IMG/VR virus record: IMGVR_UViG_3300027793_000078
Location: 14,478-78,477 of that record
DNA from: a virus
Reading direction: 5' to 3' (one strand)
Length of the DNA stretch: 64,000 nt
The position numbers were made by a program, and so were the translations under genes. The notes under the pieces were generated by a model, which did no database searches, was not told where the DNA came from, and was given only the letters and a program-made list of their open reading frames with translations. Positions within the stretch are counted from its first letter, which is position 1; each line of letters begins with the position of its first letter. Below, piece by piece: positions 11,984 to 59,837 of this stretch.

Positions 11984-13414
11984 ATGATTAGTTTAAAAGA
12001 GTTATTGATGGAAGGAGCAAAAGAAAATGCTGCATTGGATTATTTGCAGCATTTGGTACGTAATGGGCCATTCAAAGGAAGAGTTTACCTTGCAGGCGGT
12101 GCTGTGCGTGATATGCAACTTGGTAAAGATCCAAAAGATTTGGATGTTGTTGTTACAGGCGGCATTGATGCTGGTATGGAATTTGCCAAATGGGCAACTC
12201 AATACATGAATAATTTCAAGGAAGGCAGCAATCCTGTGCTGTTTCCTACATATGGTACTGCTAAATTTACATTGAGTGGTATCGTTCATAATGGTATTGA
12301 TTTGAGTGATGTCGATATTGAAGCAGTTGCAACCAGAAAAGAAAAATATAGTAGTGGCAGTCGCAAGCCAGAAGTAAGTTCTGGTGATCTTGCCGATGAT
12401 GTTAATCGTAGAGATTTTACTGTTAATAGTCTGTTGAAAGACTTGACTAATGGTGAAATTTTGGATTTGACTGGATTGGGTAAACAAGATATTGCCGCTG
12501 GTATTATTCGCACTCCATTGAATCCTGATATTATTTTCAGTGAAGATCCTCTTCGTATGTTGAGAGCGGTTCGATTTGCTTTCAAATATGATTGGGATTT
12601 GCCATTATTTATGATTCGGGCATTGAAGCGCAATTCATCACAATTAAAAAATATTAGCAATGAACGTATTCGTGATGAACTGGATAAAATGCTTGTAACC
12701 GGTAGTCCAGATAGAGCAATTAAATTGCTACGCATTACAGGATTGTTAAACTATATCATTCCAGAATTTAAAAGTGCATACAAGATGACACAAAATGTTC
12801 ATCATAAGCATGATGTATTTACACATACGTTGGAAGTTCTGAAGAAAACTAAACCTGTGTTGGCTCAACGTTTAATGGCATTGTTTCACGATATTGGCAA
12901 AACTGTTACTCGTAGTGTAACTCCTACAGGTGTTCATTTTTATGGACACGAAGACAGTGGTGCTGATATGGCAAAAGACATTATGAAGCGACTGAAATAT
13001 CCAAATGAATTGGCTGACGCCGTTGCTTTGGGTGTTCAAAATCACATGCGCTTAAAGAGCGGCGGCGATGATGCAGTTAAACTGAGCGATAAAGCGTTGC
13101 GTAAATTTAAAGTTACTCTTGGCGATCAATTGGAAAATTTGCTTGATGTAATGCATGCAGATAATATTGCACATAGCGAAGCAAGCAGCATGCCAAATCA
13201 AATTGAAAATGTTAGAAAGCGTTTGGCAGCATTGCAAATGCCGACTGAAAAACCAAATTTACCTATCAATGGCAACGATTTGATTGCTTTGGGCTTGAAA
13301 CCGGGTCCACAATTTGCGAAGATTATGAGTGCAGTGACTGATGCTTGGTATGAAAACCCAAATATAAATCGTCAACAGGCACTTGAAATTGCTCGAAAAA
13401 TTGTAAATTTATGA
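11984..13414 (+). CDS. cca: CCA tRNA nucleotidyltransferase with HD domain
   Basis: GGAVRD, DLD, RRDFTVN, EDPLRMLRAVRF, ERIRDEL, HDIGK, KPGP. Confidence 0.92.
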   Translation: MISLKELLMEGAKENAALDYLQHLVRNGPFKGRVYLAGGAVRDMQLGKDPKDLDVVVTGGIDAGMEFAKWATQYMNNFKEGSNPVLFPTYGTAKFTLSGIVHNGIDLSDVDIEAVATRKEKYSSGSRKPEVSSGDLADDVNRRDFTVNSLLKDLTNGEILDLTGLGKQDIAAGIIRTPLNPDIIFSEDPLRMLRAVRFAFKYDWDLPLFMIRALKRNSSQLKNISNERIRDELDKMLVTGSPDRAIKLLRITGLLNYIIPEFKSAYKMTQNVHHKHDVFTHTLEVLKKTKPVLAQRLMALFHDIGKTVTRSVTPTGVHFYGHEDSGADMAKDIMKRLKYPNELADAVALGVQNHMRLKSGGDDAVKLSDKALRKFKVTLGDQLENLLDVMHADNIAHSEASSMPNQIENVRKRLAALQMPTEKPNLPINGNDLIALGLKPGPQFAKIMSAVTDAWYENPNINRQQALEIARKIVNL

Positions 13415-23206: not shown

Positions 23207-23346
23207 GAGATGCACACAGCAAACAAAAAAATGCCGTCTTCTCCTTCGGACATTAAATGAAGGTAGACTTGTCGATAGTCCATGAAAAAACACGATCAGA
23301 AGTTTAACTGTAAATAAAACTAAGCATATATTAATGTTGCGTCTCG
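23207..23346 (+). ncRNA. CAGCAA-module RNA, copy 1 (multi-hairpin cargo)
   Basis: GAGATGCA-CA-CAGCAA ... TGCGTCTC-G closing helix. Confidence 0.65.
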
Positions 23347-24418: not shown

Positions 24419-24439
24419 ATTTTTATCTGTTCAAATACG

Positions 24440-24533
24440 TAGGTCGGACCAACATCAATAGTCAAGTTGGAAACCAGCGTGAAGCTAATGACTATTTCGA
24501 TGCTTCTGAATAGATAAATAAGTATCTGACCTA
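24440..24533 (+). ncRNA. Unidentified structured RNA
   Basis: TAGGTCGGA/TCTGACCTA closure; inner ATAGTCA/TGACTAT and GNRA-capped hairpins. Confidence 0.45.
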
Positions 24534-24583
24534 TACTTTAAGCTGTGGTGCGAATCCACAATGGTCACACTTTTAAAAAGTTG

Positions 24584-24611
24584 TTGACATTGGCGAAGAA
24601 AACGCTAAGAT
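24584..24611 (+). promoter_or_regulatory. sigma70-type promoter followed by boxA-like site
   Basis: TTGACA-N16-TAAGAT; TGTTCTTTACAA at 24642. Confidence 0.7.
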
Positions 24612-24660
24612 GTTCGCAACGATGAAGATGGTAATCTTCGATGTTCTTTACAAAATTTTC

Positions 24661-24941
24661 GGGTGGCGGAACAAACAAATGTATGGTTGTAACGCACAAT
24701 ATCAATGAAGAATTGATATTGGTTGGAGTAAACAATTGATGTGTAAATCTATGGAGTCAACGGGTCGATCAACCCAATGATAAGCGTATATTCGTCGTAG
24801 CTCAAAATAATGACATACCGACGAAATGAAGGTGAAATCCCTTTCAGTCATTAACATATGAAGTAATTAATCATATGGACTGTGGATGAATAACATAGCA
24901 GTTGTTGAAACTTGAAGGTAATCATTAGTCCTTCCCCACAC
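24661..24941 (+). ncRNA. ~280-nt structured RNA with T-loop-like hairpins
   Basis: 5' GTGG pairs with 3' CCAC; hairpins CAATATCAAT/ATTGATATTG, TTCGTCG/CGACGAA, GAAGG-TGAAATC-CCTTT, CATATGA/TCATATG, GAAGG/CCTTC. Confidence 0.6.
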
Positions 24942-25081
24942 TTTTTGCAAGGATGACAGATAGCAACTGTTCCGTAGCATTATATGCAGGATTTGAATTG
25001 GCAATCCAAATTCAAACATCGACCGCTTTTTTAGAAAAAAAATTAATAAATTTTGTTCTCTGATACTATATATGATTTAAT

Positions 25082-25541: not shown

Positions 25542-25754
25542 ATTTTGGATTATCCTATAAAGCTCTGATTAATTTTGTTTAGTAAAATCACTGCCGAATA
25601 ACTAAAAGGCATTCGTATTATCCTCAATAGCAATATTGATGTTTAGACAAAATATAGATGATAATCTGCCGTGGATTGAATCAGCAAGGCTGCGGCAAAT
25701 CATTTTGTTTGGTAGTTTGGTCAACAATAAAACTACTCTAGTAACAACTGCTAG

Positions 25755-25963
25755 TCTCAGTTGATGGGTTCCATATCCCTTAATAAAAATATGGCATTTG
25801 CCCTTTTTTGTAGAAAAAAGGCGATGTTATCACTACATCTTAAAAGTGATTGTTGCATCTTAACATAAAAGATGCCCTAAGCAAAAGAACTCCGCTATAG
25901 TGAGTTCCAATAGATTCTCCTTTACGTGCTAGAATGTTTCATGTTAAAGTGAAACAACTGAGA
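25755..25963 (+). ncRNA. Multi-hairpin star RNA (7 hairpins in a 9-bp closure)
   Basis: TCTCAGTTG/CAACTGAGA enclosing CCATAT/ATATGG, CCTTTTTT/AAAAAAGG, ATCACT/AGTGAT, GCATCT/AGATGC, GAACTC/GAGTTC, ATTCT/AGAAT, GTTTCAT/GTGAAAC. Confidence 0.6.
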
Positions 25964-26008
25964 ATCAGCCACAAATTTATCTAGTAAGATTGTGGCACAT
26001 TTTAAAAT

Positions 26009-26085: not shown

Positions 26086-26209
26086 GAGATACATTCAGCA
26101 ATACAAATAAATAATAAACAGCTATACGTGGTGTTCGAATCCCACCTTGCCCACTAGACGGGCAAGTAGCCGAGCGGTTCAGGCGGCTGTCAAATAAAAA
26201 CGTATCTCG
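26086..26209 (+). ncRNA. CAGCAA-module RNA, copy 2, enclosing a circularly permuted tRNA body (YrlA-like)
   Basis: GAGATAC/GTATCTC closure; tRNA 3' half 26118-26153 precedes 5' half 26160-26190. Confidence 0.8.
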
Positions 26210-26297: not shown

Positions 26298-26302
26298 GTT
26301 TT

Positions 26303-26443
26303 AACATTCAGTGACTATAAAAAAATTGCAGACGCAATGACCAAATAGAGGTTGGTTTTAGGTTTTAGTATGAGAAACGGAGTTTGTTGTAAACGTTTAT
26401 TTCATATATTTATTCAATCATTCGTCGTCTATTACCGAATGTT
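26303..26443 (+). ncRNA. Rod-like structured RNA
   Basis: AACATTC/GAATGTT ends; AGACG/CGTCT, AATGA/TCATT, AAACG/CGTTT nested. Confidence 0.45.
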
Positions 26444-26451
26444 TAATTTTT

Positions 26452-26504
26452 AAGACACTTGCAGCAAACATATTTTTTATTGAAAAAAACCAAACGGTGT
26501 CTTG
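26452..26504 (+). ncRNA. CAGCAA-module RNA, copy 3 (minimal)
   Basis: AAGACAC-TTG-CAGCAA ... GTGTCTT-G. Confidence 0.7.
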
Positions 26505-26787: not shown

Positions 26788-26842
26788 TAGACACACACAG
26801 CAACTTTATATTCCAATAGGAAACAAAAGAGAACGTGTCTAG
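26788..26842 (+). ncRNA. CAGCAA-module RNA, copy 4 (minimal)
   Basis: TAGACAC-ACA-CAGCAA ... GTGTCTA-G. Confidence 0.7.
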
Positions 26843-26941: not shown

Positions 26942-26946
26942 AATTT

Positions 26947-27110
26947 TACCGTGTGGTATTTTTGTGATACACGAATAATGGGTAGCATAAAGCAGATATA
27001 CCACTGAGTGGTTTCAGATGGTAATGTATCATACTATGTCCAACGTTCGGTGCTAATTGCGTCTGACCAACATACAATTAGTTGTGGGTTTGATTCCCAT
27101 CCACGGTACA
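26947..27110 (+). ncRNA. ~165-nt RNA with tRNA-like acceptor stem and T arm
   Basis: TACCGTG/CACGGTA closure; GTGGG-TTTGATT-CCCAT. Confidence 0.55.
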
Positions 27111-27246
27111 CTTTCAATTCAATCTTTGACAACATATCAATGTTGAGACTAGTCATCTTACCAAAACAAAACCAATCATATTTTGTCGGAGTTGTCGTGT
27201 TTTTAAAGTTTTGTGAACTGTTCGACAACAACATTGATACTTTAAT

Positions 27247-27323: not shown

Positions 27324-27331
27324 ATTTTTAA

Positions 27332-27504
27332 TTCTGTGTATAGATAAACGGTATTGCTATTTGGTAATGACTGACAACAGTATATTATGAGTAAAATCGT
27401 AATAATTAGTAATACTAATACCTACGGGGATATCAGACTGAACAAACAAATGAGTTTTTGAATTTGGGTTGATATTACAAATCTATTGATTGCGGGTCAC
27501 AGAA
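27332..27504 (+). ncRNA. Unidentified structured RNA
   Basis: TTCTGTG/CACAGAA closure; TATTATGA/TCGTAATA, ATTAGT/ACTAAT hairpins. Confidence 0.4.
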
Positions 27505-27518
27505 ATAAAACTCTTTAA

Positions 27519-27658
27519 AAGATACATACAGCAACAAATAAAGCAATCCAAACTGCATATACAGCGTGAAAATCCTGTTCCCTCTGCCAATTTTAACAGA
27601 GTATTTATAGAGGGATCGTCTAACATTTAGGACAGCAGTACGCAAAAAATGTATCTTG
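27519..27658 (+). ncRNA. CAGCAA-module RNA, copy 5, enclosing a circularly permuted tRNA-Trp-like body with encoded CCA
   Basis: AAGATACAT/ATGTATCTT closure; 3' half 27552-27589 ends TCCCTCT-G-CCA, 5' half 27609-27639 starts AGAGGGA. Confidence 0.8.
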
Positions 27659-27664
27659 TTTTTT

Positions 27665-27810
27665 GAGTATACATGAACAGAATGAAAATTGTATGGCGAC
27701 GAGTCCTGTAGTCATAAGACAAGACGTGAGGACAAAGATATTATCTATAGGTAATATACGAAAAACGTAACGAAGTGTCTTTGTGGGTCAACTAATCCCA
27801 CTGTATACTC
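27665..27810 (+). ncRNA. Unidentified structured RNA
   Basis: GAGTATACA/TGTATACTC closure; GTCCT/AGGAC, ACAAAGATATT/AGTGTCTTTGT, GTGGG/CCCAC. Confidence 0.5.
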
Positions 27811-39140: not shown

Positions 39141-39884
39141 ATGTTCGCTAATATTCTTAATCAGTTTCAGCCTATTGGTGCCAAGGAAGTTGGTATTCTT
39201 GCATCTATTATTGTCATGGACGCCGCATTGAGCGGTGACAACAGTATTGCAATCACCGCCATGACCAAGCATCTTTCAGATAATTTGCGTCAAAAGGCAA
39301 TTTATCTCGGTATGGTTCTTGCCGCATTGTTTCGATTTATTGCATTGTTTTTCACTGCGTTTATTATCAATAATCCGTGGGTGCAGATTCTTGGTGCATT
39401 GTATCTGGTTCATCTGTGCTGGTCGCATTTCCGTGAAGAGGAAGAGGAAATGGAAGGATTTGCACACAAGCAAAAGGGATTTTTCGCTACACTTGCCGCA
39501 ATCGGAATTCTTGATTTGAGTCTTTCTTTGGATAATGTTGTGGCGATTACGTCCATGACCAAGAATCTTACGGTTATTTTCATTGGTGTTGCCATGAGTA
39601 TTGCCATGTTGGCCGTTGCCACCAAGGTTACGTCATGGTTGATGAAGCGGTTTCCTAGCATTCAGGATGCAGCATATATTATTCTTGGATTTCTCGGTGT
39701 CAGTATGTTGTTGGCTCATACCAGTGAATTTCTTATTTGGGCTGGCAATCTGATTCATAAGCATCATGACAAAATTGAACATATGAAGGTTGAAATTGGT
39801 GAAATTGGTGAAATCATTGGTGTGGCGATTATTCTTGGATTCTCGTTGCTCAAGGATACCGCATTCAAGAAGGTCAAGAATTAA
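39141..39884 (+). CDS. terC: TerC-family membrane protein
   Basis: D..LSGDN...DLSLSLDNVVA; multiple TM helices. Confidence 0.88.
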   Translation: MFANILNQFQPIGAKEVGILASIIVMDAALSGDNSIAITAMTKHLSDNLRQKAIYLGMVLAALFRFIALFFTAFIINNPWVQILGALYLVHLCWSHFREEEEEMEGFAHKQKGFFATLAAIGILDLSLSLDNVVAITSMTKNLTVIFIGVAMSIAMLAVATKVTSWLMKRFPSIQDAAYIILGFLGVSMLLAHTSEFLIWAGNLIHKHHDKIEHMKVEIGEIGEIIGVAIILGFSLLKDTAFKKVKN

Positions 39885-39904
39885 CAAATTAAATATAAAA
39901 ATAT

Positions 39905-41086
39905 ATGAGTAATACTACTACTATTACCGTGGACGACAATCCTACTGTATTGTTTGGTGCCACGAACAAATCTAATATGGCAGTTGCTGCAAAGTCAGCC
40001 AATTTGAACATTGTGTTGAGTGATACTGCCAAGCAACAGGCAATGCAAATTGCAAATAGCATGCCTTTCACGTCGATGGACGAAAAGCAGGTTGTTCTGT
40101 TTGGTCATCATCTGCAAAAGGGTCTTTCTGAAAAGATGGACGTGATGTTGCAGGAAATTACCAAGGGCAACAGTCCTGTTCTTTTTGAGTTGTTTCGGCA
40201 ACTTAAGAAGGGTATCAATACAGCAAATATTGGTGAAATCGAAGCGGAAATTCGTAAAAGCATCAACAAGGGATTCTTTACCAATATTCTTGAAAGTGTT
40301 GGTCTGAGCAGCGTTGCCGGGCGCATGCAAAAGGCAAATGCCAAGATCAATGAACTAATCACCAAGAAAGCCACCACTCTACGTGAGTTGATTGGAGAAA
40401 TGGAATTGTCAATTCAAAACGAAGCCAATAAGCTAATTGAGAGCACCAGTCGATTGCATCAGTTGGGCGACAGCTATCGTGACAATATTGAGGAAGTTGG
40501 TATTTATGTCGAAGCTGGTCGTGCGATTTATAATCAGGCTTTGATCGAATATAACAAGCAATTGGAAGAAGCTAAGAACAGTCAAGATCCAGTTAAGGCT
40601 GAATCGTGCAAGCGATTCAAACAGGCACTTGACATGTTTCAAGCCCGTGTTGTTGTACTTGAAACCGCATACGCCAAGAGTCCTGTTGAAATGGAATATA
40701 TTCGACTTGGTGAAGGCGCAAGTTTGACCACACTTGGTGAAACTGCAAATACTGTGCTGGAGGAATTTAATGATATCAAGAGCACTCTTATCAAATTGAG
40801 TGTTATTCATCAAATTCAGACGGTTCAAATTATGAATCAGGAACGTCGTGAACTTCGCAAGGCATTGCAGAGTCATAGCAACGATTTGCTGGAAGATGTG
40901 GCTGTCAATGCTGAAAAGAGCAAGGGTATTCATCGATTGGAAGATGCTGAACAGTTGCTTGACATTGCCAAGAGAATCGATACAATCTATACCAAGGTTG
41001 AGGAAGAAAACAAAAACAATCAACTACGTTTTGCCGAAGCTCGTACCAAGTTGGTAGAAGCCAAGGCTATTGTCACTAAACTGTAA
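39905..41086 (+). CDS. TelA/KlaA toxic anion resistance protein
   Basis: Long helical protein, FG..LQ..LS, typical size and Ter context. Confidence 0.7.
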   Translation: MSNTTTITVDDNPTVLFGATNKSNMAVAAKSANLNIVLSDTAKQQAMQIANSMPFTSMDEKQVVLFGHHLQKGLSEKMDVMLQEITKGNSPVLFELFRQLKKGINTANIGEIEAEIRKSINKGFFTNILESVGLSSVAGRMQKANAKINELITKKATTLRELIGEMELSIQNEANKLIESTSRLHQLGDSYRDNIEEVGIYVEAGRAIYNQALIEYNKQLEEAKNSQDPVKAESCKRFKQALDMFQARVVVLETAYAKSPVEMEYIRLGEGASLTTLGETANTVLEEFNDIKSTLIKLSVIHQIQTVQIMNQERRELRKALQSHSNDLLEDVAVNAEKSKGIHRLEDAEQLLDIAKRIDTIYTKVEEENKNNQLRFAEARTKLVEAKAIVTKL

Positions 41087-41097
41087 AAAATAAATAT

Positions 41098-41718
41098 ATG
41101 GCTACGTTTAATCTGAAGAAGGGTAATAAGTTCAATATCGACAAGGGCATTCGTAATGTTCTTGTTGGAACTGGATGGAAGATTAATTCTTCCAATGGTT
41201 CTGCTTTTGATATTGATTTGAGTGTGTTTGGTTGTGTTCGTGATGTTGCTGGTAATCCTACCTTTTACAATCAGGGTTCGCATGCTGTTTGCTATGCAAA
41301 TTCTGACCTAAAGAAGGGTGCAAATAAGAGTTTGCTTACCGAAGATGGCAGCATTGCACACACTGGCGACAATCGTATTGGTGCAAATGGTACAAATACT
41401 GACGCCGAGCAGAGTGTTGTCAAGTTGAGTGATTTGCCGAGCGACATCACTGAAGTTAGCTTCTTTATTACCATTTACGAGGCAAAGAAGCGCATTCAGA
41501 AGTTTGGTTCCATCAGCGGTGCATATATTCGTGTAGTGGATATGGAGACCAACAACGAATTGTGCCGTTATGACTTGCAGAAGGAGTTTGATAATGCTAT
41601 CAGTATTCAGGTTGGTAGTCTGATTAAGGATACCGACACTGGTAGTTGGTCATTTAGCGCAGTTGGTGCTGGTAGCAATAATGAAGATTTGGGCGACATT
41701 CTTGGTAAGTTGTCCTAA
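41098..41718 (+). CDS. terD: TerD-family protein
   Basis: NLKKG...VG.GW...FDIDLS...HTGDNR.G...D.E...ITIYEA...W.F.AVG.G. Confidence 0.9.
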   Translation: MATFNLKKGNKFNIDKGIRNVLVGTGWKINSSNGSAFDIDLSVFGCVRDVAGNPTFYNQGSHAVCYANSDLKKGANKSLLTEDGSIAHTGDNRIGANGTNTDAEQSVVKLSDLPSDITEVSFFITIYEAKKRIQKFGSISGAYIRVVDMETNNELCRYDLQKEFDNAISIQVGSLIKDTDTGSWSFSAVGAGSNNEDLGDILGKLS

Positions 41719-41736
41719 AATTAAACTAGTATAAAC

Positions 41737-42612
41737 ATGACCCCGAAAACAATATTTGGAAATGCGTCTATTAAAAAGACGGATGAACCTTCTTCTACAA
41801 AGGTTACGCCTTCCGTATTGTTTTCGGGGAATGTTATTACCAAGACCGAGAAGGTGTCCAAATCAGAGCCTTCTCAAATTTTTGGAAAAACAGCAATTGT
41901 TCGCAATAGGATCAAAGTTAGTGTAGTTGATTTGAAAGATAAATATCCTAAAATCAATGATGCTGTTCTTAACAAAGCTGTAGAATTGATTTTAACTACC
42001 AATTGCGAACAAATTAATCAAACTGATATTATCAATTGGGGATATAGTGCCCAAGAAAAATATACAGATTTGGTTGAAAATATTGCAAATATCAATGGCA
42101 GTGTGTTGCTGTCGGCGACCAAACAATTGATCAATGAAATTGGAGAGTTGATTGAACTCGACACAAAAACCAATGGAATAATCAAAAAGCTATTCAATAA
42201 AAACAATACAGAAGCGATTTATCGCAAGATTGTAGTCAAAAATGAATTGCTGAAGAAAAATACAATTATGCTGCATAATCTTCTTGAAGTTATCAAGAAT
42301 TGTATGCAGAATACCATTGCGTTAGAGCACGAAATACTAGTAAATGTAATTGCCGGTAATTTCATAATGGATTTTATTCCAAATCAGTATAAAGATACAT
42401 TTACTTCACGTATTATCAGCTTGGAATCATTGAATACACAATTCAAGTTGAGTAAAAAGCAACTTGAATTGTTAGATGAAACTATCATTAAAATGATTAG
42501 TATCATTCAGGATACACTTTCTGTAGAAGTGCCTACGTGGTATAACAATAAAACTTTCGTAAATATCAGCGAGAATAAGAAACAAGAAATTCTAAATAAA
42601 ATTAAACTATGA
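41737..42612 (+). CDS. TelA-like helical protein (second paralog)
   Basis: IINWG..AQ...; VPTW near C-terminus. Confidence 0.5.
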   Translation: MTPKTIFGNASIKKTDEPSSTKVTPSVLFSGNVITKTEKVSKSEPSQIFGKTAIVRNRIKVSVVDLKDKYPKINDAVLNKAVELILTTNCEQINQTDIINWGYSAQEKYTDLVENIANINGSVLLSATKQLINEIGELIELDTKTNGIIKKLFNKNNTEAIYRKIVVKNELLKKNTIMLHNLLEVIKNCMQNTIALEHEILVNVIAGNFIMDFIPNQYKDTFTSRIISLESLNTQFKLSKKQLELLDETIIKMISIIQDTLSVEVPTWYNNKTFVNISENKKQEILNKIKL

Positions 42613-43355
42613 GCAAATTCGTACTTGAAAAGGCAGTGGAAAAGACACGATTCGTACTTGATAAAAAGCAGGTAAAGAATATCAAGGCACATATTGTGAT
42701 TGATCTGGATGTAAGCGGATCAACAAAAGACATGTATAGTCGTGGATTGTTTCAAAAGGCATTTCAGCAAGTGTTGCCTATTGGCATTCTATTTGACGAC
42801 AACCAAGAGGTTGATACGTTTACGTTTAATGATGGTGAATCACACGATCATATTACACCAAATGCCACCAAAGACAATTATAGCGATTATATTCGCAAGT
42901 ATATATTGAATAATGGTGCCGTTAAAAAGTGGGGTGGAACCGATTACGCTCCTGTATTGAAATCGAATCTTGATGAATTCAAGTTTATTCGTGAATCCAC
43001 GTCCACTAAAAAGAGCTTTTTTGGTCTTTTCAACAGCACCAAAACTGAAACCAAGCTACATTCTACAAGTGAGAGCGGATATCCTGTAATTGTATTTTTC
43101 TTTACAGATGGTGAAAACTCTGATAAAGCAGATACTCTGGAACTAATTAAAAATTGTCAAGAGAACAATGTAAATATTTATTTTCAGTTTATTGGTATTG
43201 GTAGTGGCAACTTTGAATTTCTAACAGTGCTTGCCGACCAGTTTTCAAACACTGGATTTGTAAATGTATTGGACCTTGATAAGGTTGTGGATGACGATTC
43301 GTTTATTGACATTCTGTTGAATGATGAATTGTGTGCATATCTGAAAGCTAAGTAA
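42609..43355 (+). CDS. Ter-associated vWA domain protein
   Basis: DVSGS MIDAS, GGTDYAP, FFTDGEN, FQFIGIG. Confidence 0.85.
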   Translation: MSKFVLEKAVEKTRFVLDKKQVKNIKAHIVIDLDVSGSTKDMYSRGLFQKAFQQVLPIGILFDDNQEVDTFTFNDGESHDHITPNATKDNYSDYIRKYILNNGAVKKWGGTDYAPVLKSNLDEFKFIRESTSTKKSFFGLFNSTKTETKLHSTSESGYPVIVFFFTDGENSDKADTLELIKNCQENNVNIYFQFIGIGSGNFEFLTVLADQFSNTGFVNVLDLDKVVDDDSFIDILLNDELCAYLKAK

Positions 43356-58762: not shown

Positions 58763-59041
58763 ATGAATAGAGAAAAGTTAAACTTGACAAATGAACAAGC
58801 CCGAGATATTGTTTGGGGCGAAACCGATGATTTTACTGAAATAAGTAATAAAGTCGTAGGAACGTCACGTTGGAGCACAGTTTATGAAATTGTTGTTCAA
58901 CGCAAAAGCGATGGAAAATATTTCAAAGACAAATATCGTGTTGCTGCGACTGAAAGTCAGGAGGAACGTGCATATGAATACACAAATCCAAACTTTACAG
59001 AAGTATTTCCTGTAGAAAAGAAAATAATTGTATATGAATGA
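58763..59041 (+). CDS. Hypothetical phage protein
   Basis: RWS....V....DGKYF...Y...ATE.QE...EV.P.EK. Confidence 0.55.
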   Translation: MNREKLNLTNEQARDIVWGETDDFTEISNKVVGTSRWSTVYEIVVQRKSDGKYFKDKYRVAATESQEERAYEYTNPNFTEVFPVEKKIIVYE

Positions 59042-59837
59042 TGAACTTGGAAACAGAATGAAGGAACAATACGAGAATCGTACTCGTTATTTACTTCCTC
59101 GTCGTACTTATAGTATTCTTCGATTGGATGGTAAAGCATTTCACACCTATACTAAGGGTTTGAATAAACCATTTGATCGTGGATTATCTAATGATATTGA
59201 TAATGCGATTATTGCAATGCTTGGAGAAATTCAAGGCGTTGTATTTGCATATACACAGAGTGATGAAATTAGTGTATTGTTGACTGATTTTGAAAAAGAG
59301 TCAACCAGTGCATGGTTTGACGGCAATCTTCAAAAAATGACAAGTGTTGCCGCAAGTATTATCACTGGCGAATTCAATAAACTTCGTTTTTTGAGAAATG
59401 AATCCAACTGGTTATCAAATAAGCCATCTGTGTTTCCATCTGACTTTGTTCCTGCATATTTTGATTGTCGTGTATTTACAATTCCTGATCGAACGGAAGT
59501 AATGAACTATTTTCGTTGGAGACAACAAGATTGCATTAGAAATAGTGTTAGTATGGTTGCACAGAGCAATTTTACCCACAACGAGTTGCAAGGAAAGAGT
59601 CAGCGTGATATGCACGATATGCTTTATGCTAAAGGTATAAATTGGGCGACTGATTATACCGATGGTGAGAAAAATGGTCGTGTAATTATGAAAGAAACAT
59701 TCAATGAAAAATTTGCAGTTGCTGGAACCACAGAATTGTTCGTATCGGAAAGAACTCGTTGGGTTGCCCGTGGTGCATGGGTATTTACCAAGGATGAAGG
59801 TAAATTGTTAAATATGATTCCAAAATATGAAGATTAA
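59034..59837 (+). CDS. tRNA(His) guanylyltransferase Thg1-like (3'-5' polymerase)
   Basis: RMK.YE, RLDGKAFH, QSDEIS, FDG..QK..S, FD.R, WRQQD..RNS. Confidence 0.92.
   Translation: MNDELGNRMKEQYENRTRYLLPRRTYSILRLDGKAFHTYTKGLNKPFDRGLSNDIDNAIIAMLGEIQGVVFAYTQSDEISVLLTDFEKESTSAWFDGNLQKMTSVAASIITGEFNKLRFLRNESNWLSNKPSVFPSDFVPAYFDCRVFTIPDRTEVMNYFRWRQQDCIRNSVSMVAQSNFTHNELQGKSQRDMHDMLYAKGINWATDYTDGEKNGRVIMKETFNEKFAVAGTTELFVSERTRWVARGAWVFTKDEGKLLNMIPKYED

What the first reader, a model, noticed from the sequence alone, without database searches (positions are those of the whole stretch)
27519..27658. Second, independent permuted tRNA (Trp-like) with encoded CCA and the same T-stem bulge
Seen: the 3' half ACTGC-ATAT-ACAG-c-G-TGAAAAT-C-CTGT-TCCCTCT-G-CCA precedes a 19-nt linker and the 5' half AGAGGGA-TC-GTCTAACATTTAGGAC-A-GCAGT. 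A1-U72, G73 and a TCCAA remnant just before ACTGC point to tRNA-Trp ancestry. Its sequence is unrelated to permuted body #1, yet both carry a single bulged base at the same T-stem position, just before the loop-closing G-C pair. That suggests a selected feature. Inference: linker removal would give a two-piece RNA with a real CCA end but no anticodon, i.e. a non-decoding tRNA mimic.
Basis: partly seen in the sequence, partly recalled or inferred. Interest (0 to 1): 0.82.

Follow-up and report, generated by a model that had tools for sequence, protein, structure and literature searches.

The report
Phage Y-RNA-like permuted tRNA mimic
This 140-base phage gene encodes a small RNA shaped like a tRNA turned inside out on a conserved "handle"; it is probably the partner RNA of a phage Ro60-like protein, a viral variant of the known bacterial YrlA tRNA mimics, not a decoding tRNA.

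Summary
Window 27519-27661 holds T arm, 7-bp acceptor stem with GCCA, a 19-nt linker, then the acceptor 5' strand, D arm and anticodon-stem strand.

- **Conservation:** Four orthologues from separate metagenomes keep all five helices. Four base pairs changed on both sides, and the linker drifts about 3.5 times faster than the rest.
- **Ancestry:** tRNA-Glu fits better than Trp.
- **The handle:** The body sits on a closing stem plus N3-CAGCAA. Five RNAs in this tRNA island share it, two of them without cargo.
- **Likely partner:** In 80 other phage loci this handle lies beside, and on the same strand as, DUF2828 genes. A DUF2828 model matches only Ro60 structures among its top PDB hits. The collinear relative G001 has this gene, with two handles upstream, about 8 kb past where our contig ends.
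- **Closest known:** YrlA Y RNAs.
- **The bulge:** It is kept in all #2 orthologues but is not family-wide.

This scan reported the same handle family before on other DNA. I rate it a new variant of a known kind.

The parts
27519..27527 (+). Handle, 5' strand of the closing stem (AAGAUACAU). The family-defining 7 bp are 27519-27525.
   Evidence: It pairs with 27649-27657. It is invariant in the 4 orthologues. The stem covaries among the five handle RNAs of the window.
27529..27534 (+). Invariant CAGCAA motif, 3 nt after the stem. Putative protein-binding site of the handle.
   Evidence: It is present in all five window handles. It is invariant in 30 handles beside DUF2828 genes of other phages. 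It is strongly enriched on the gene strand next to DUF2828.
27535..27551 (+). A-rich single strand ending in AAUCCAA (27545-51), the remnant of the ancestral anticodon loop.
   Evidence: Sequence reading. G011 reads AUUCCAA, close to the CUUUCAA loop of the phage tRNA-Glu.
27552..27556 (+). Anticodon-stem 3' strand (ACUGC, positions 39-43).
   Evidence: It pairs with 27635-39. The 27-43 pair reads G-C, G.U, A-U and C/U across the 4 orthologues.
27561..27578 (+). T arm: ACAG-c-G / UGAAAAU / C-CUGU, with bulged C at 27565 and a non-canonical loop (G55, A56).
   Evidence: The first pair changes A-U to G-C in 3 orthologues. The bulge and loop are invariant.
27579..27589 (+). Acceptor 3' strand UCCCUCU, discriminator G73, encoded CCA.
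   Evidence: The 7-bp stem has 2 pairs changed on both sides. GCCA is invariant.
27590..27608 (+). Linker closing the acceptor stem. Predicted to be removed by RNase P plus 3' trimming (inferred).
   Evidence: It is 19, 19, 16 and 16 nt long in the four orthologues, and 10 of 19 columns vary, against 15% elsewhere.
27609..27639 (+). 5' half: acceptor AGAGGGA, U8 C9, D arm GUCU-AACAUUUA-GGAC, A26, anticodon-stem 5' strand GCAGU.
   Evidence: The D arm is nearly identical to that of the G001 tRNA-Glu(ttc).
27640..27657 (+). 3' single strand ACGCAAAAA and the handle 3' strand AUGUAUCUU.
   Evidence: Invariant in the orthologues. ACGCAAAAAAU is also kept in the G044 relative.
27658..27667 (+). GUUUUUUGAG tail after the handle. 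Likely the 3' end region.
   Evidence: All handles end ..CU(U/C/A)G(U)n. RNA-run contigs of two studies stop or join at 27667/8; this is a weak hint only.

Best explanation
Element #2 is a gene for a small non-coding RNA of about 140-150 nt, made of two modules.

**Module 1, the handle.** The RNA's two ends pair in a short stem, followed after 3 nt by CAGCAA and A-rich single strands. This is the common mark of an RNA family that travels with phage DUF2828/DUF7788 proteins, which are predicted to fold like the Ro60 ring. The handle is therefore most likely the protein-binding site, as the CGAA-bearing stem is in Y RNAs.

**Module 2, the cargo.** It is a tRNA-Glu-derived cloverleaf in circularly permuted order. 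The chain is opened between positions 31 and 32 and joined to the handle. The acceptor end is closed by a linker. This is the topology of the tRNA-like domain of bacterial YrlA.

**How it is made and what it does.** The RNA is transcribed within the phage tRNA array and freed by the tRNA-processing enzymes. The 7-bp acceptor stem with a conserved GCCA makes it a likely RNase P substrate. A cut before A27609, with trimming to CCA27589, would give a two-piece, CCA-ended mimic held together by the acceptor, anticodon and handle helices. It would not decode. It would present a tRNA shape to tRNA-recognising enzymes while tethered to the Ro60-like protein, as a scaffold or a decoy.

**Shown here:** the structure and its selection; handle-family membership by sequence; the handle-DUF2828 association; the Ro60-like predicted fold.
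**Inferred:** binding to the protein, processing, and function.
For: **Structure and selection**
- Sequence and pairing are as described.
- In 4 orthologues, 30 pairs are 99.2% paired, with 4 changes on both sides in three helices against 0 in slid controls.
- The linker varies at 53% of its columns against 15% elsewhere, and GCCA is invariant.

**The handle in this window**
- Five elements share the stem-N3-CAGCAA frame with covarying stems.
- A covariance model built only from handles beside DUF2828 genes of other phage clades hits the two cargo-less window handles at 42.5 and 35.1 bits, E about 1e-6 to 1e-4.

**Handle-DUF2828 association**
- In 80 DUF2828 loci there are 138 handles on the gene strand and 3 on the other. 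Decoy motifs give 1-13 and control loci 5-7. Of the 138, 85 lie in the 1 kb upstream of the gene.
- G001 is collinear with our contig and has DUF2828 about 8 kb past our contig's end, with a promoter-like site and two handles directly upstream.

**Fold of the protein**
- The DUF2828 model has pLDDT 75.5. Its 13 best PDB matches are all Ro60/TROVE, including Thermus phage phiLo Ro60, with E from 1e-6 to 5e-4.

**The same design elsewhere**
- Distant DUF2828 phages carry it inside their tRNA arrays: G044 at 65 bits, with C-CCA plus an AU-rich linker; G028 at 47.7 bits; L247, right upstream of the gene.

**Published precedents**
- YrlA topology, and RNase P cleavage with CCA gain in M. smegmatis YrlA (PMC4201824).
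- A phage Ro60 that binds Y-like RNAs (PMC12135203).

**Expression**
- Contigs of four metatranscriptome runs cover the element. DNA carry-over is not excluded.
Against: - No DUF2828 or TROVE gene lies in the window's own 78-kb contig, which is about 22% complete. In G001 the gene is about 40 kb from the tRNA island, not adjacent.
- Element #2 itself scores only 11 bits with the handle model, because the cargo sits in the loop. It has no Rfam YrlA hit.
- Low YrlA scores are unspecific. Tandem tRNAs of G007 give them, and 13 of 14 control genomes ring.
- ARAGORN does not accept the re-joined body as a tRNA, even at lowered thresholds. The T loop lacks U55-C56 and the D loop lacks G18-G19.
- No datum here shows protein binding, RNase P cleavage or a free CCA end.
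- Only 4 close orthologues (mean column identity 91%) support the covariation.
Confidence: 0.62

Rival explanations
1. It is a true circularly permuted tRNA gene. The transcript is cut in the internal loop next to the handle, its ends are ligated, and the linker is removed, giving a functional decoding tRNA, as in Cyanidioschyzon merolae.
For: The 3' half lies before the 5' half, with an encoded CCA, and the flanks pair. A 7-nt loop remnant, AAUCCAA or AUUCCAA, sits next to the stem. The phage encodes tRNA end-repair enzymes: a CCA-adding enzyme and a Thg1-like protein.
Against: - There is no bulge-helix-bulge motif. A 9-bp stem faces a 24 x 9-nt internal loop.
- The remnant has A33 in 3 of 4 orthologues, and its anticodon would read UCC on a Glu-type body.
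- The T and D loops are non-canonical, and ARAGORN rejects the re-joined body.
- The same handle carries non-tRNA cargo or none at all, and it belongs to a family tied to a Ro60-like protein.
- Bacteria lack the splicing endonuclease (established knowledge). No RtcB was found in G000 or G001.
Confidence: 0.04
2. It is a decaying remnant of two tandem tRNA-Glu genes, with the outer halves lost: a pseudogene without function.
For: The linker begins CCA-AUUUU, like the trailers of the real tRNAs in this cluster. Such a tandem pair is the likely evolutionary origin. The T and D loops have drifted from consensus.
Against: - Every stem substitution among the 4 orthologues but one is compensated, while the linker drifts freely.
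- The handle and flanks are invariant.
- The same architecture is kept in distant phages.
Confidence: 0.06
3. It is a structured RNA of the handle family that works without the Ro60-like protein. It could be a processing or termination module of the tRNA operon, or an Hfq-type sRNA (A-rich ARN-like stretch, stem, U tail). On this reading the tRNA-like cargo only stabilises it or guides RNase P and RNase Z.
For: The elements sit between tRNAs and end in stem + U run. In G001 the island is 40 kb from DUF2828. No binding datum exists.
Against: The strong same-strand clustering of handles in the 1 kb upstream of DUF2828 genes across diverse phages is hard to explain without a functional tie. A 7-9-bp stem closing a loop of 40-120 nt is a poor intrinsic terminator.
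Confidence: 0.2
4. It is a miniature two-piece (permuted) tmRNA-like molecule that is charged and enters stalled ribosomes.
For: The gene order (T arm, CCA, linker, 5' acceptor strand) is that of permuted ssrA. Weak Rfam hits to permuted tmRNA models fall on neighbouring elements of relatives.
Against: - ARAGORN finds no tmRNA.
- There is no tag reading frame or pseudoknots in a 45-nt 3' piece.
- There is no G3.U70; the pair is A3-U70 or G3-C70.
- A full D arm is present, unlike in tmRNA.
Confidence: 0.02

Closest known systems
YrlA (Y RNA-like A; Rfam RF02553; Chen et al. 2014, PMC4201824; Wang et al. 2018, bioRxiv 10.1101/312249)
   Same: Both are modular RNAs. The 5' and 3' ends pair in a stem that carries a short protein-binding motif. 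The other module is a tRNA mimic in the order variable region, T arm, loop-closed acceptor stem, D arm, with the anticodon stem leading into the terminal stem. YrlA is found in bacteria and in some phages. M. smegmatis YrlA, with a 7-bp acceptor stem, is cut by RNase P and carries CCA.
   Different: - The motif is CAGCAA after a 7-bp stem, not GNCGAAN0-1G.
- The Rfam model gives no hit on #2 and 18.9 bits on #1, against a gathering score of 69.
- No TROVE gene is nearby; the likely partner is DUF2828.
- CCA is encoded in the gene and followed by a 16-19-nt linker.
- The T stem is bulged.
- The T and D loops lack U55-C56 and G18-G19.
- Several copies lie inside a tRNA array.
Thermus phage phiLo Ro60 with Yrl1/Yrl2 (PMC12135203; PDB 9KOP, 9L5Y)
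   Same: A phage-encoded Ro60-fold protein with small stem-bulge-stem partner RNAs encoded just upstream of its gene. It is the top structural match of the DUF2828 model.
   Different: The phiLo protein is a canonical TROVE protein. Its RNAs carry CGAA and no tRNA-like module. Binding and PNPase recruitment are shown there; nothing is shown for DUF2828.
Dictyostelium Class I RNAs (Rfam RF01414; Kjellin et al. 2021, PMC7919456)
   Same: Both are 42-65-nt RNAs with a short covarying stem joining the ends, a conserved motif next to the 5' strand of the stem, a variable interior, and AAG... / ...CUGU-like termini. The cargo-less window handle at 26453-26504 gives the best non-tRNA Rfam hit to this model.
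   Different: The score is below gathering (20.7 against 41.5 bits). The Dictyostelium RNAs are eukaryotic, have another known protein partner (Rnp1A), and carry no tRNA-like cargo. This is a resemblance only.
Circularly permuted tRNA genes of Cyanidioschyzon merolae and other algae and archaea
   Same: The 3' half is encoded upstream of the 5' half, the halves are joined by a linker at the acceptor end, and the flanks pair.
   Different: Those have a BHB motif, are circularised and then cut by RNase P and RNase Z, and yield normal decoding tRNAs. Here there is no BHB, no intact canonical anticodon loop, and a handle shared with non-tRNA cargo.
Two-piece tmRNA from permuted ssrA genes
   Same: The gene order is permuted, and the two pieces are held together by pairing, with a CCA end in the upstream piece.
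   Different: Element #2 has no tag frame, no pseudoknots and no G3.U70. It has a full D arm and is about 140 nt long.

Membership tests
YrlA (Rfam RF02553) | tRNA-like domain in the order T arm, loop-closed acceptor stem, D arm, carried on a stem formed by the RNA's two ends | tested here: met
   The Rfam consensus structure is shown.
YrlA (Rfam RF02553) | Covariance-model score at or above the gathering score of 69 bits | tested here: not met
   There is no hit on #2, even at E<=10 in a 191-nt search. Body #1 scores 18.9 bits. The best relative is L182:221-338 at 37.3 bits. Low scores are unspecific.
YrlA (Rfam RF02553) | GNCGAAN0-1G motif near the 5' end (Chen et al. 2014) | tested here: not met
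   The 5' part reads AAGAUACAUACAGCAACAAAU. It contains CAGCAA and no CGAA.
YrlA (Rfam RF02553) | Encoded within about 4 kb of a TROVE (Ro60/Rsr) gene, on the same strand | tested here: not met
   PF05731 is absent from G000, G001, G002, G007, G010 and G011. All of these contigs are incomplete.
YrlA, M. smegmatis subtype | RNase P cleavage at the acceptor stem and a CCA-ended 5' piece | not testable with these tools
   Only the prerequisites can be seen: a 7-bp acceptor stem, a T arm, and a conserved GCCA.
Stem-N3-CAGCAA 'handle' RNAs beside DUF2828 genes (no published name found) | 7-bp covarying closing stem, 3 nt, CAGCAA, A-rich interior, 3' ..CUUG(U)n | tested here: met
   27519-27534 with 27649-27661. 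The pattern is the same as in 30 handles of other clades.
Stem-N3-CAGCAA 'handle' RNAs beside DUF2828 genes (no published name found) | Significant score with a covariance model built from DUF2828-adjacent handles (R1) | tested here: inconclusive
   The window's cargo-less paralogues pass at 42.5 and 35.1 bits. #2 gets 11 bits, with only its 5' half aligned correctly, because an 88-nt cargo sits in the loop.
Stem-N3-CAGCAA 'handle' RNAs beside DUF2828 genes (no published name found) | A DUF2828/DUF7788 (Ro60-fold) gene in the same genome | tested here: inconclusive
   None lies in the 78-kb contig. The collinear relative G001 has it about 8 kb beyond the equivalent of our contig's end, with two handles upstream.
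Permuted tRNA genes (C. merolae type) | Bulge-helix-bulge motif formed by leader and trailer at the junction | tested here: not met
   A 9-bp stem is followed by a 24 x 9-nt internal loop.
Permuted tRNA genes (C. merolae type) | The re-joined halves form a canonical tRNA with a 7-nt anticodon loop (U33, purine 37) | tested here: not met
   ARAGORN rejects the re-joined #2 at every threshold tried. The loop remnant AAUCCAA has A33.
Two-piece tmRNA | tmRNA call, tag reading frame, G3.U70 | tested here: not met
   ARAGORN finds no tmRNA. The 3-70 pair is A-U or G-C.
Dictyostelium Class I RNA (RF01414) | Score at or above the gathering score of 41.5 bits | tested here: not met
   The cargo-less handles score 20.7-22.7 bits. 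There is no hit on #2.

The most novel reading that the evidence does not exclude
The encoded GCCA marks a real end. RNase P and 3' trimming would turn element #2 into a two-piece, CCA-ended tRNA-Glu mimic that stays clamped by the handle to a phage Ro60-like (DUF2828) ring. The phage's own CCA-adding and Thg1-like end-repair enzymes would maintain it. During infection it would engage host enzymes that act on tRNA, such as GluRS, anticodon nucleases, PNPase or repair ligases, as a tethered decoy or recruiter. That would make it a viral RNP class distinct from canonical Ro60-Y RNA particles.
Probability: 0.25. Interest if true: 0.8.

Novelty: new variant of a known kind. Interest (0 to 1): 0.58.

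Why it matters
tRNA mimicry by Y-like RNAs is known from bacteria and a few mycobacteriophages, always beside a canonical Ro60. Here the same inside-out tRNA design sits on a different handle. I could not find that handle in Rfam or in the searchable papers. It is tied to DUF2828, a large uncharacterised protein family: more than 6500 database proteins match at E<=1e-10, and hundreds are in IMG/VR. Its predicted fold is Ro60.

Element #2 adds two specific points.
- It has a gene-encoded, conserved CCA inside the acceptor loop, and a distant phage shows the same. This makes the proposed RNase P-made two-piece form directly testable.
- Its tRNA elbow appears rebuilt with other bases (U19-A56 in place of G19-C56; this is an inference from the sequence).

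If the RNP is real, it is a widespread phage device acting on host tRNA or RNA-decay enzymes. It would also give a function to DUF2828.

Tried and rejected
- **ARAGORN on the permuted body.** The duplicated segment (S+S, intron mode) is called a tRNA for body #1 but not for #2. #2 re-joined with four different 7-nt loops is rejected down to -ps70.
- **Rfam.** Nothing at gathering thresholds except real tRNAs. Nothing meaningful on #2 at E<=10.
- **YrlA model on relatives.** The G007 hits are adjacent real tRNAs, and 13 of 14 control genomes ring, so low scores carry no weight.
- **Searches that led nowhere.**
  - The phage GenBank collection returned only tRNA-Leu matches.
  - The 14-base handle pattern in IMG/VR gave chance hits only.
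  - The 225-aa neighbouring protein has no relatives in IMG/VR.
  - 'relatives' is not available for virus records.
  - The T-arm 16-mer gave 40 hits, 2 of them true.
  - The metagenome pattern gave 3 hits, 1 of them true.
- **TROVE and RtcB.** Not found in the incomplete contigs.
- **Metatranscriptome contigs.**
  - There is no joint that would join 27639 to about 27545, so no sign of circularisation at the anticodon side.
  - No break is seen at 27589 or 27609.
  - Contigs run through the linker.
  - The region of element #1 is nearly uncovered.
  - Contigs cannot show ends or absence, so none of this counts for or against processing.
- **tRNA-Trp ancestry.** Rejected in favour of tRNA-Glu.
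- **Tag-peptide reading of CAGCAA... (tmRNA idea).** The frames are short and inconsistent among the five handles, so I dropped it.
- **Strict descriptor on long handles.** Only 1 of 30 long handles beside DUF2828 genes passed my strict permuted-tRNA descriptor. tRNA-like cargo is therefore a minority, or my descriptor is too strict.

Full report
**1. Setting**

- The window is bases 14478-78477 of a 78.5-kb IMG/VR viral contig, judged about 22% complete. It is about 33% G+C and comes from freshwater.
- Bases 24.3-30.1 kb hold a tRNA array on the + strand. ARAGORN tRNAs and Rfam adds one.
- The array lies among phage genes: an HNH endonuclease, a lysozyme, a CCA-adding enzyme and a Thg1-like enzyme.

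**2. The observation**

- Read 5' to 3' it gives these parts:
  - anticodon-stem 3' strand, 4-nt variable region, and T arm with a bulged C;
  - 7-nt acceptor 3' strand, G73, CCA, and a 19-nt AU-rich linker;
  - acceptor 5' strand, U8-C9, D arm, A26, and anticodon-stem 5' strand.
- No normal tRNA overlaps it.
- The same frame encloses body #1 (26086-26208) and a non-tRNA cargo (23207-23345). It also stands 'empty' at 26452-26503 and 26788-26841. The stems covary: GAGAUGC, GAGAUAC, AAGACAC, UAGACAC, AAGAUAC.

**3. Is it more than chance?**

- Shape alone is weak evidence. The folding z-score is -1.7, and a loose permuted-tRNA descriptor finds 0-3 hits per shuffled window.
- Conservation decides it. 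I found three orthologues: G001 (108.8 kb IMG/VR contig), G011 (13 kb) and a JGI metagenome contig, L182.
- On the 4-sequence alignment, the 30 proposed pairs are 99.2% paired. Four pairs changed on both sides: 27-43, 49-65, 3-70 and 6-67. None does so when the partners are slid by 1-3 columns.
- Ten of the 19 linker columns vary and its length varies too. About 15% of columns vary elsewhere. GCCA, the bulged C, both loops and the handle are invariant.
- Nine DNA runs from several studies hold 96-100% of the locus's sampled words. It is not an assembly chimera.

**4. Ancestry**

- The body carries the marks of bacterial tRNA-Glu. This list comes from my own knowledge of E. coli tRNA-Glu identity elements:
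  - U8-C9;
  - D arm GUCUAA...UUAGGAC with U13.G22;
  - a 4-nt variable loop lacking position 47;
  - G73.
- Among 56 real tRNAs of the related contigs, the nearest are two tRNA-Glu(UUC) genes.
- The 7 nt before the stem, AAUCCAA (AUUCCAA in G011), resemble their CUUUCAA loop. The chain is therefore opened between positions 31 and 32.
- The Trp reading is not supported.
- The T loop (U54 G55 A56 A57 A58) and D loop (A14 A15 C16 A17 U18 U19 U20 A21) both lack the canonical partners. They could form U19-A56 instead of G19-C56. This is inference only.

**5. What kind of thing it is**

- The topology is that of the tRNA-like domain of YrlA: terminal stem, variable region, T arm, loop-closed acceptor stem, D arm, back to the stem. 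Compare the Rfam consensus shown and Chen et al. 2014.
- The YrlA model aligns body #1 end to end, but at 18.9 bits. G001's counterpart scores 27.9 bits, L182:221-338 scores 37.3 bits, and #2 gets no hit.
- Such low scores are also given by adjacent real tRNAs and by 13 of 14 control genomes. Formal membership fails.
- The GNCGAA motif is absent, and there is no TROVE gene in six related but incomplete contigs.

**6. The handle and its likely partner**

- Notes from earlier runs of this scan on other DNA named a 'stem + ACAGCAA' handle travelling with DUF2828 proteins. I treated this as a lead and tested it.
- *DUF2828 in a relative.* G001 is collinear with our contig to its very end. It encodes DUF2828+DUF7788 about 8 kb past the point where our contig stops. 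Directly upstream lie a promoter-like site and two handle RNAs, one with the GAGAUGC stem also seen at window 23207.
- *Handle counts near the gene.* In 80 IMG/VR loci holding DUF2828 genes (40-92% identity), my detector finds 138 handles on the gene strand and 3 on the other strand.
  - Four decoy hexamers give 1-13, and unrelated viral loci give 5-7.
  - 85 of the 138 lie within 1 kb upstream of the gene, and 68 of the 80 loci have at least one.
  - Many of the 80 loci are related to each other, so these are not 80 independent events.
- *Handle model.* A covariance model made from 30 such handles, none from our clade, hits the two cargo-less window handles at 42.5 and 35.1 bits. It hits G001's upstream handle at 43.6 bits. 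The loaded handles align only in their 5' halves, because the model cannot span the cargo.
- *Protein fold.* An AlphaFold model of an intact 502-aa clade member has pLDDT 75.5. Its 13 best PDB matches are all Ro60/TROVE structures, led by Thermus phage phiLo Ro60, at TM about 0.45-0.56.
- *Literature.* No searchable paper treats DUF2828 in this context.

**7. The design recurs in distant phages**

- A model of element #2 finds full-length relatives in distant DUF2828 phages.
- G044 is a complete 209-kb genome. Its relative scores 65 bits and reads acceptor CUCUCCA, C73, CCA, then a 13-nt AU-rich linker. Its T stem is regular, and it keeps the flanking GCAAUC and ACGCAAAAAAU strings.
- G028 scores 47.7 bits. 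Its T stem is irregular and it has no CCA.
- Both are wedged exactly between real tRNAs, so the tRNA-processing enzymes would set their ends.
- L247 has a handle with a permuted tRNA core 300 nt upstream of its DUF2828 gene.
- In our clade the cargo at the #1 position differs in every genome: acceptors GGGCAAG, GGACAGA, AUGUCAA and GGGGAAG. It always keeps a perfect 7-bp acceptor stem, A73 and a 5-6-nt loop.
- The T-stem bulge is kept in all #2 orthologues and in window #1.
  - It is shifted by one position in L182:434-568.
  - It is absent in G001 #1, G011 #1, L182:221-338 and G044.
  - It is recurrent but not family-wide.

**8. Mechanism**

- *Shown:* a selected two-module RNA gene; a handle family associated with a protein of predicted Ro60 fold.
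- *Inferred:*
  - The handle binds the DUF2828 ring.
  - RNase P cuts before A27609 and exonucleases trim to CCA27589. M. smegmatis YrlA, the one YrlA with a 7-bp acceptor stem, does this and carries CCA.
  - The phage's CCA-adding enzyme could maintain the end.
  - The product mimics tRNA for some tRNA-recognising enzyme without decoding.
- Contigs of four metatranscriptome runs cover the element, with uneven depth along the island. That fits transcription but does not exclude DNA carry-over, and it shows nothing about processing.

**9. Verdict**

- This is a phage variant of the YrlA-type tRNA mimic on a different, uncatalogued handle with a probable Ro60-like partner.
- This scan reported the same handle family before on other DNA. 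What is specific here is the tRNA-Glu-derived cargo with a conserved encoded CCA.

Noticed in passing
window 27325-27667 and 27510-27806: Metatranscriptome contigs close on themselves. A 343-nt unit has 27667 joined back to 27325/6 in two runs of two studies (X15, X16). A 297-nt unit, 27510-27806, appears in X14, with ACTCT microhomology at both ends. 27325 lies 2 nt after the CCA of tRNA-Leu, and 27667 lies just after the U run behind element #2. These could be circular RNAs, tandem DNA variants or template switching.
   Followed up: partly
window 26086-26208: Body #1 is a handle carrying a second permuted tRNA mimic, with a canonical T loop, a closed 7-bp acceptor stem and no CCA. ARAGORN calls it a tRNA when it is re-permuted. 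Its counterparts in G001, G011 and L182 carry quite different tRNA bodies on the same handle.
   Followed up: yes
window 26452-26503 and 26788-26841; 23207-23345: Two cargo-less handle RNAs of 52 and 54 nt, the second abutting tRNA-Ile, and one handle with a cargo of about 110 nt that is not tRNA-like. The cargo-less ones give the best non-tRNA Rfam hit, to Dictyostelium Class I RNA (20.7 bits, below gathering).
   Followed up: partly
L182:434-568: This handle RNA has a cargo with an intact local anticodon-arm-like hairpin (UCCA-AUGAUAA-UGGA) before the T arm. The tRNA chain is therefore opened at 26/27 instead of 31/32. The T-stem bulge is one position off.
   Followed up: partly
L198:5608-8060 (G001 77.6-80.1 kb): The DUF2828 gene of G001 is split. 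A 133-aa N-terminal piece is followed by a 283-aa inserted ORF with no Pfam hit, then a 372-aa C-terminal piece. A NUMOD3 (homing-endonuclease-type) ORF follows. Close relatives have an intact 502-aa gene, which suggests an intron or mobile insertion.
   Followed up: partly
window 59028-59837 and 11984-13414: A Thg1-like enzyme (tRNA-His guanylyltransferase / 3'-5' polymerase family; PF04446, E=4e-25) and an HD-domain CCA-adding enzyme. Together they suggest the phage can repair both tRNA ends.
   Followed up: no
window 39141-43355: TerC, a TelA-like protein and a vWA-TerF-like protein form a tellurite-resistance-type cluster in the phage.
   Followed up: no
window 27626: One RNA-run contig (X16, depth about 5) lacks one T of the TTT in the D loop of element #2. 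This could be an error, a strain variant or a reverse-transcription slip.
   Followed up: no
window 24430-25080, 25545-26005, 26300-26450, 26945-27245, 27330-27505, 27665-27810: The other gaps between tRNAs hold no ORFs. They contain T-arm-like fragments and end-paired stretches. In three RNA runs, depth is highest over 26.4-27.1 kb (47-64, against 5-9 further on).
   Followed up: no
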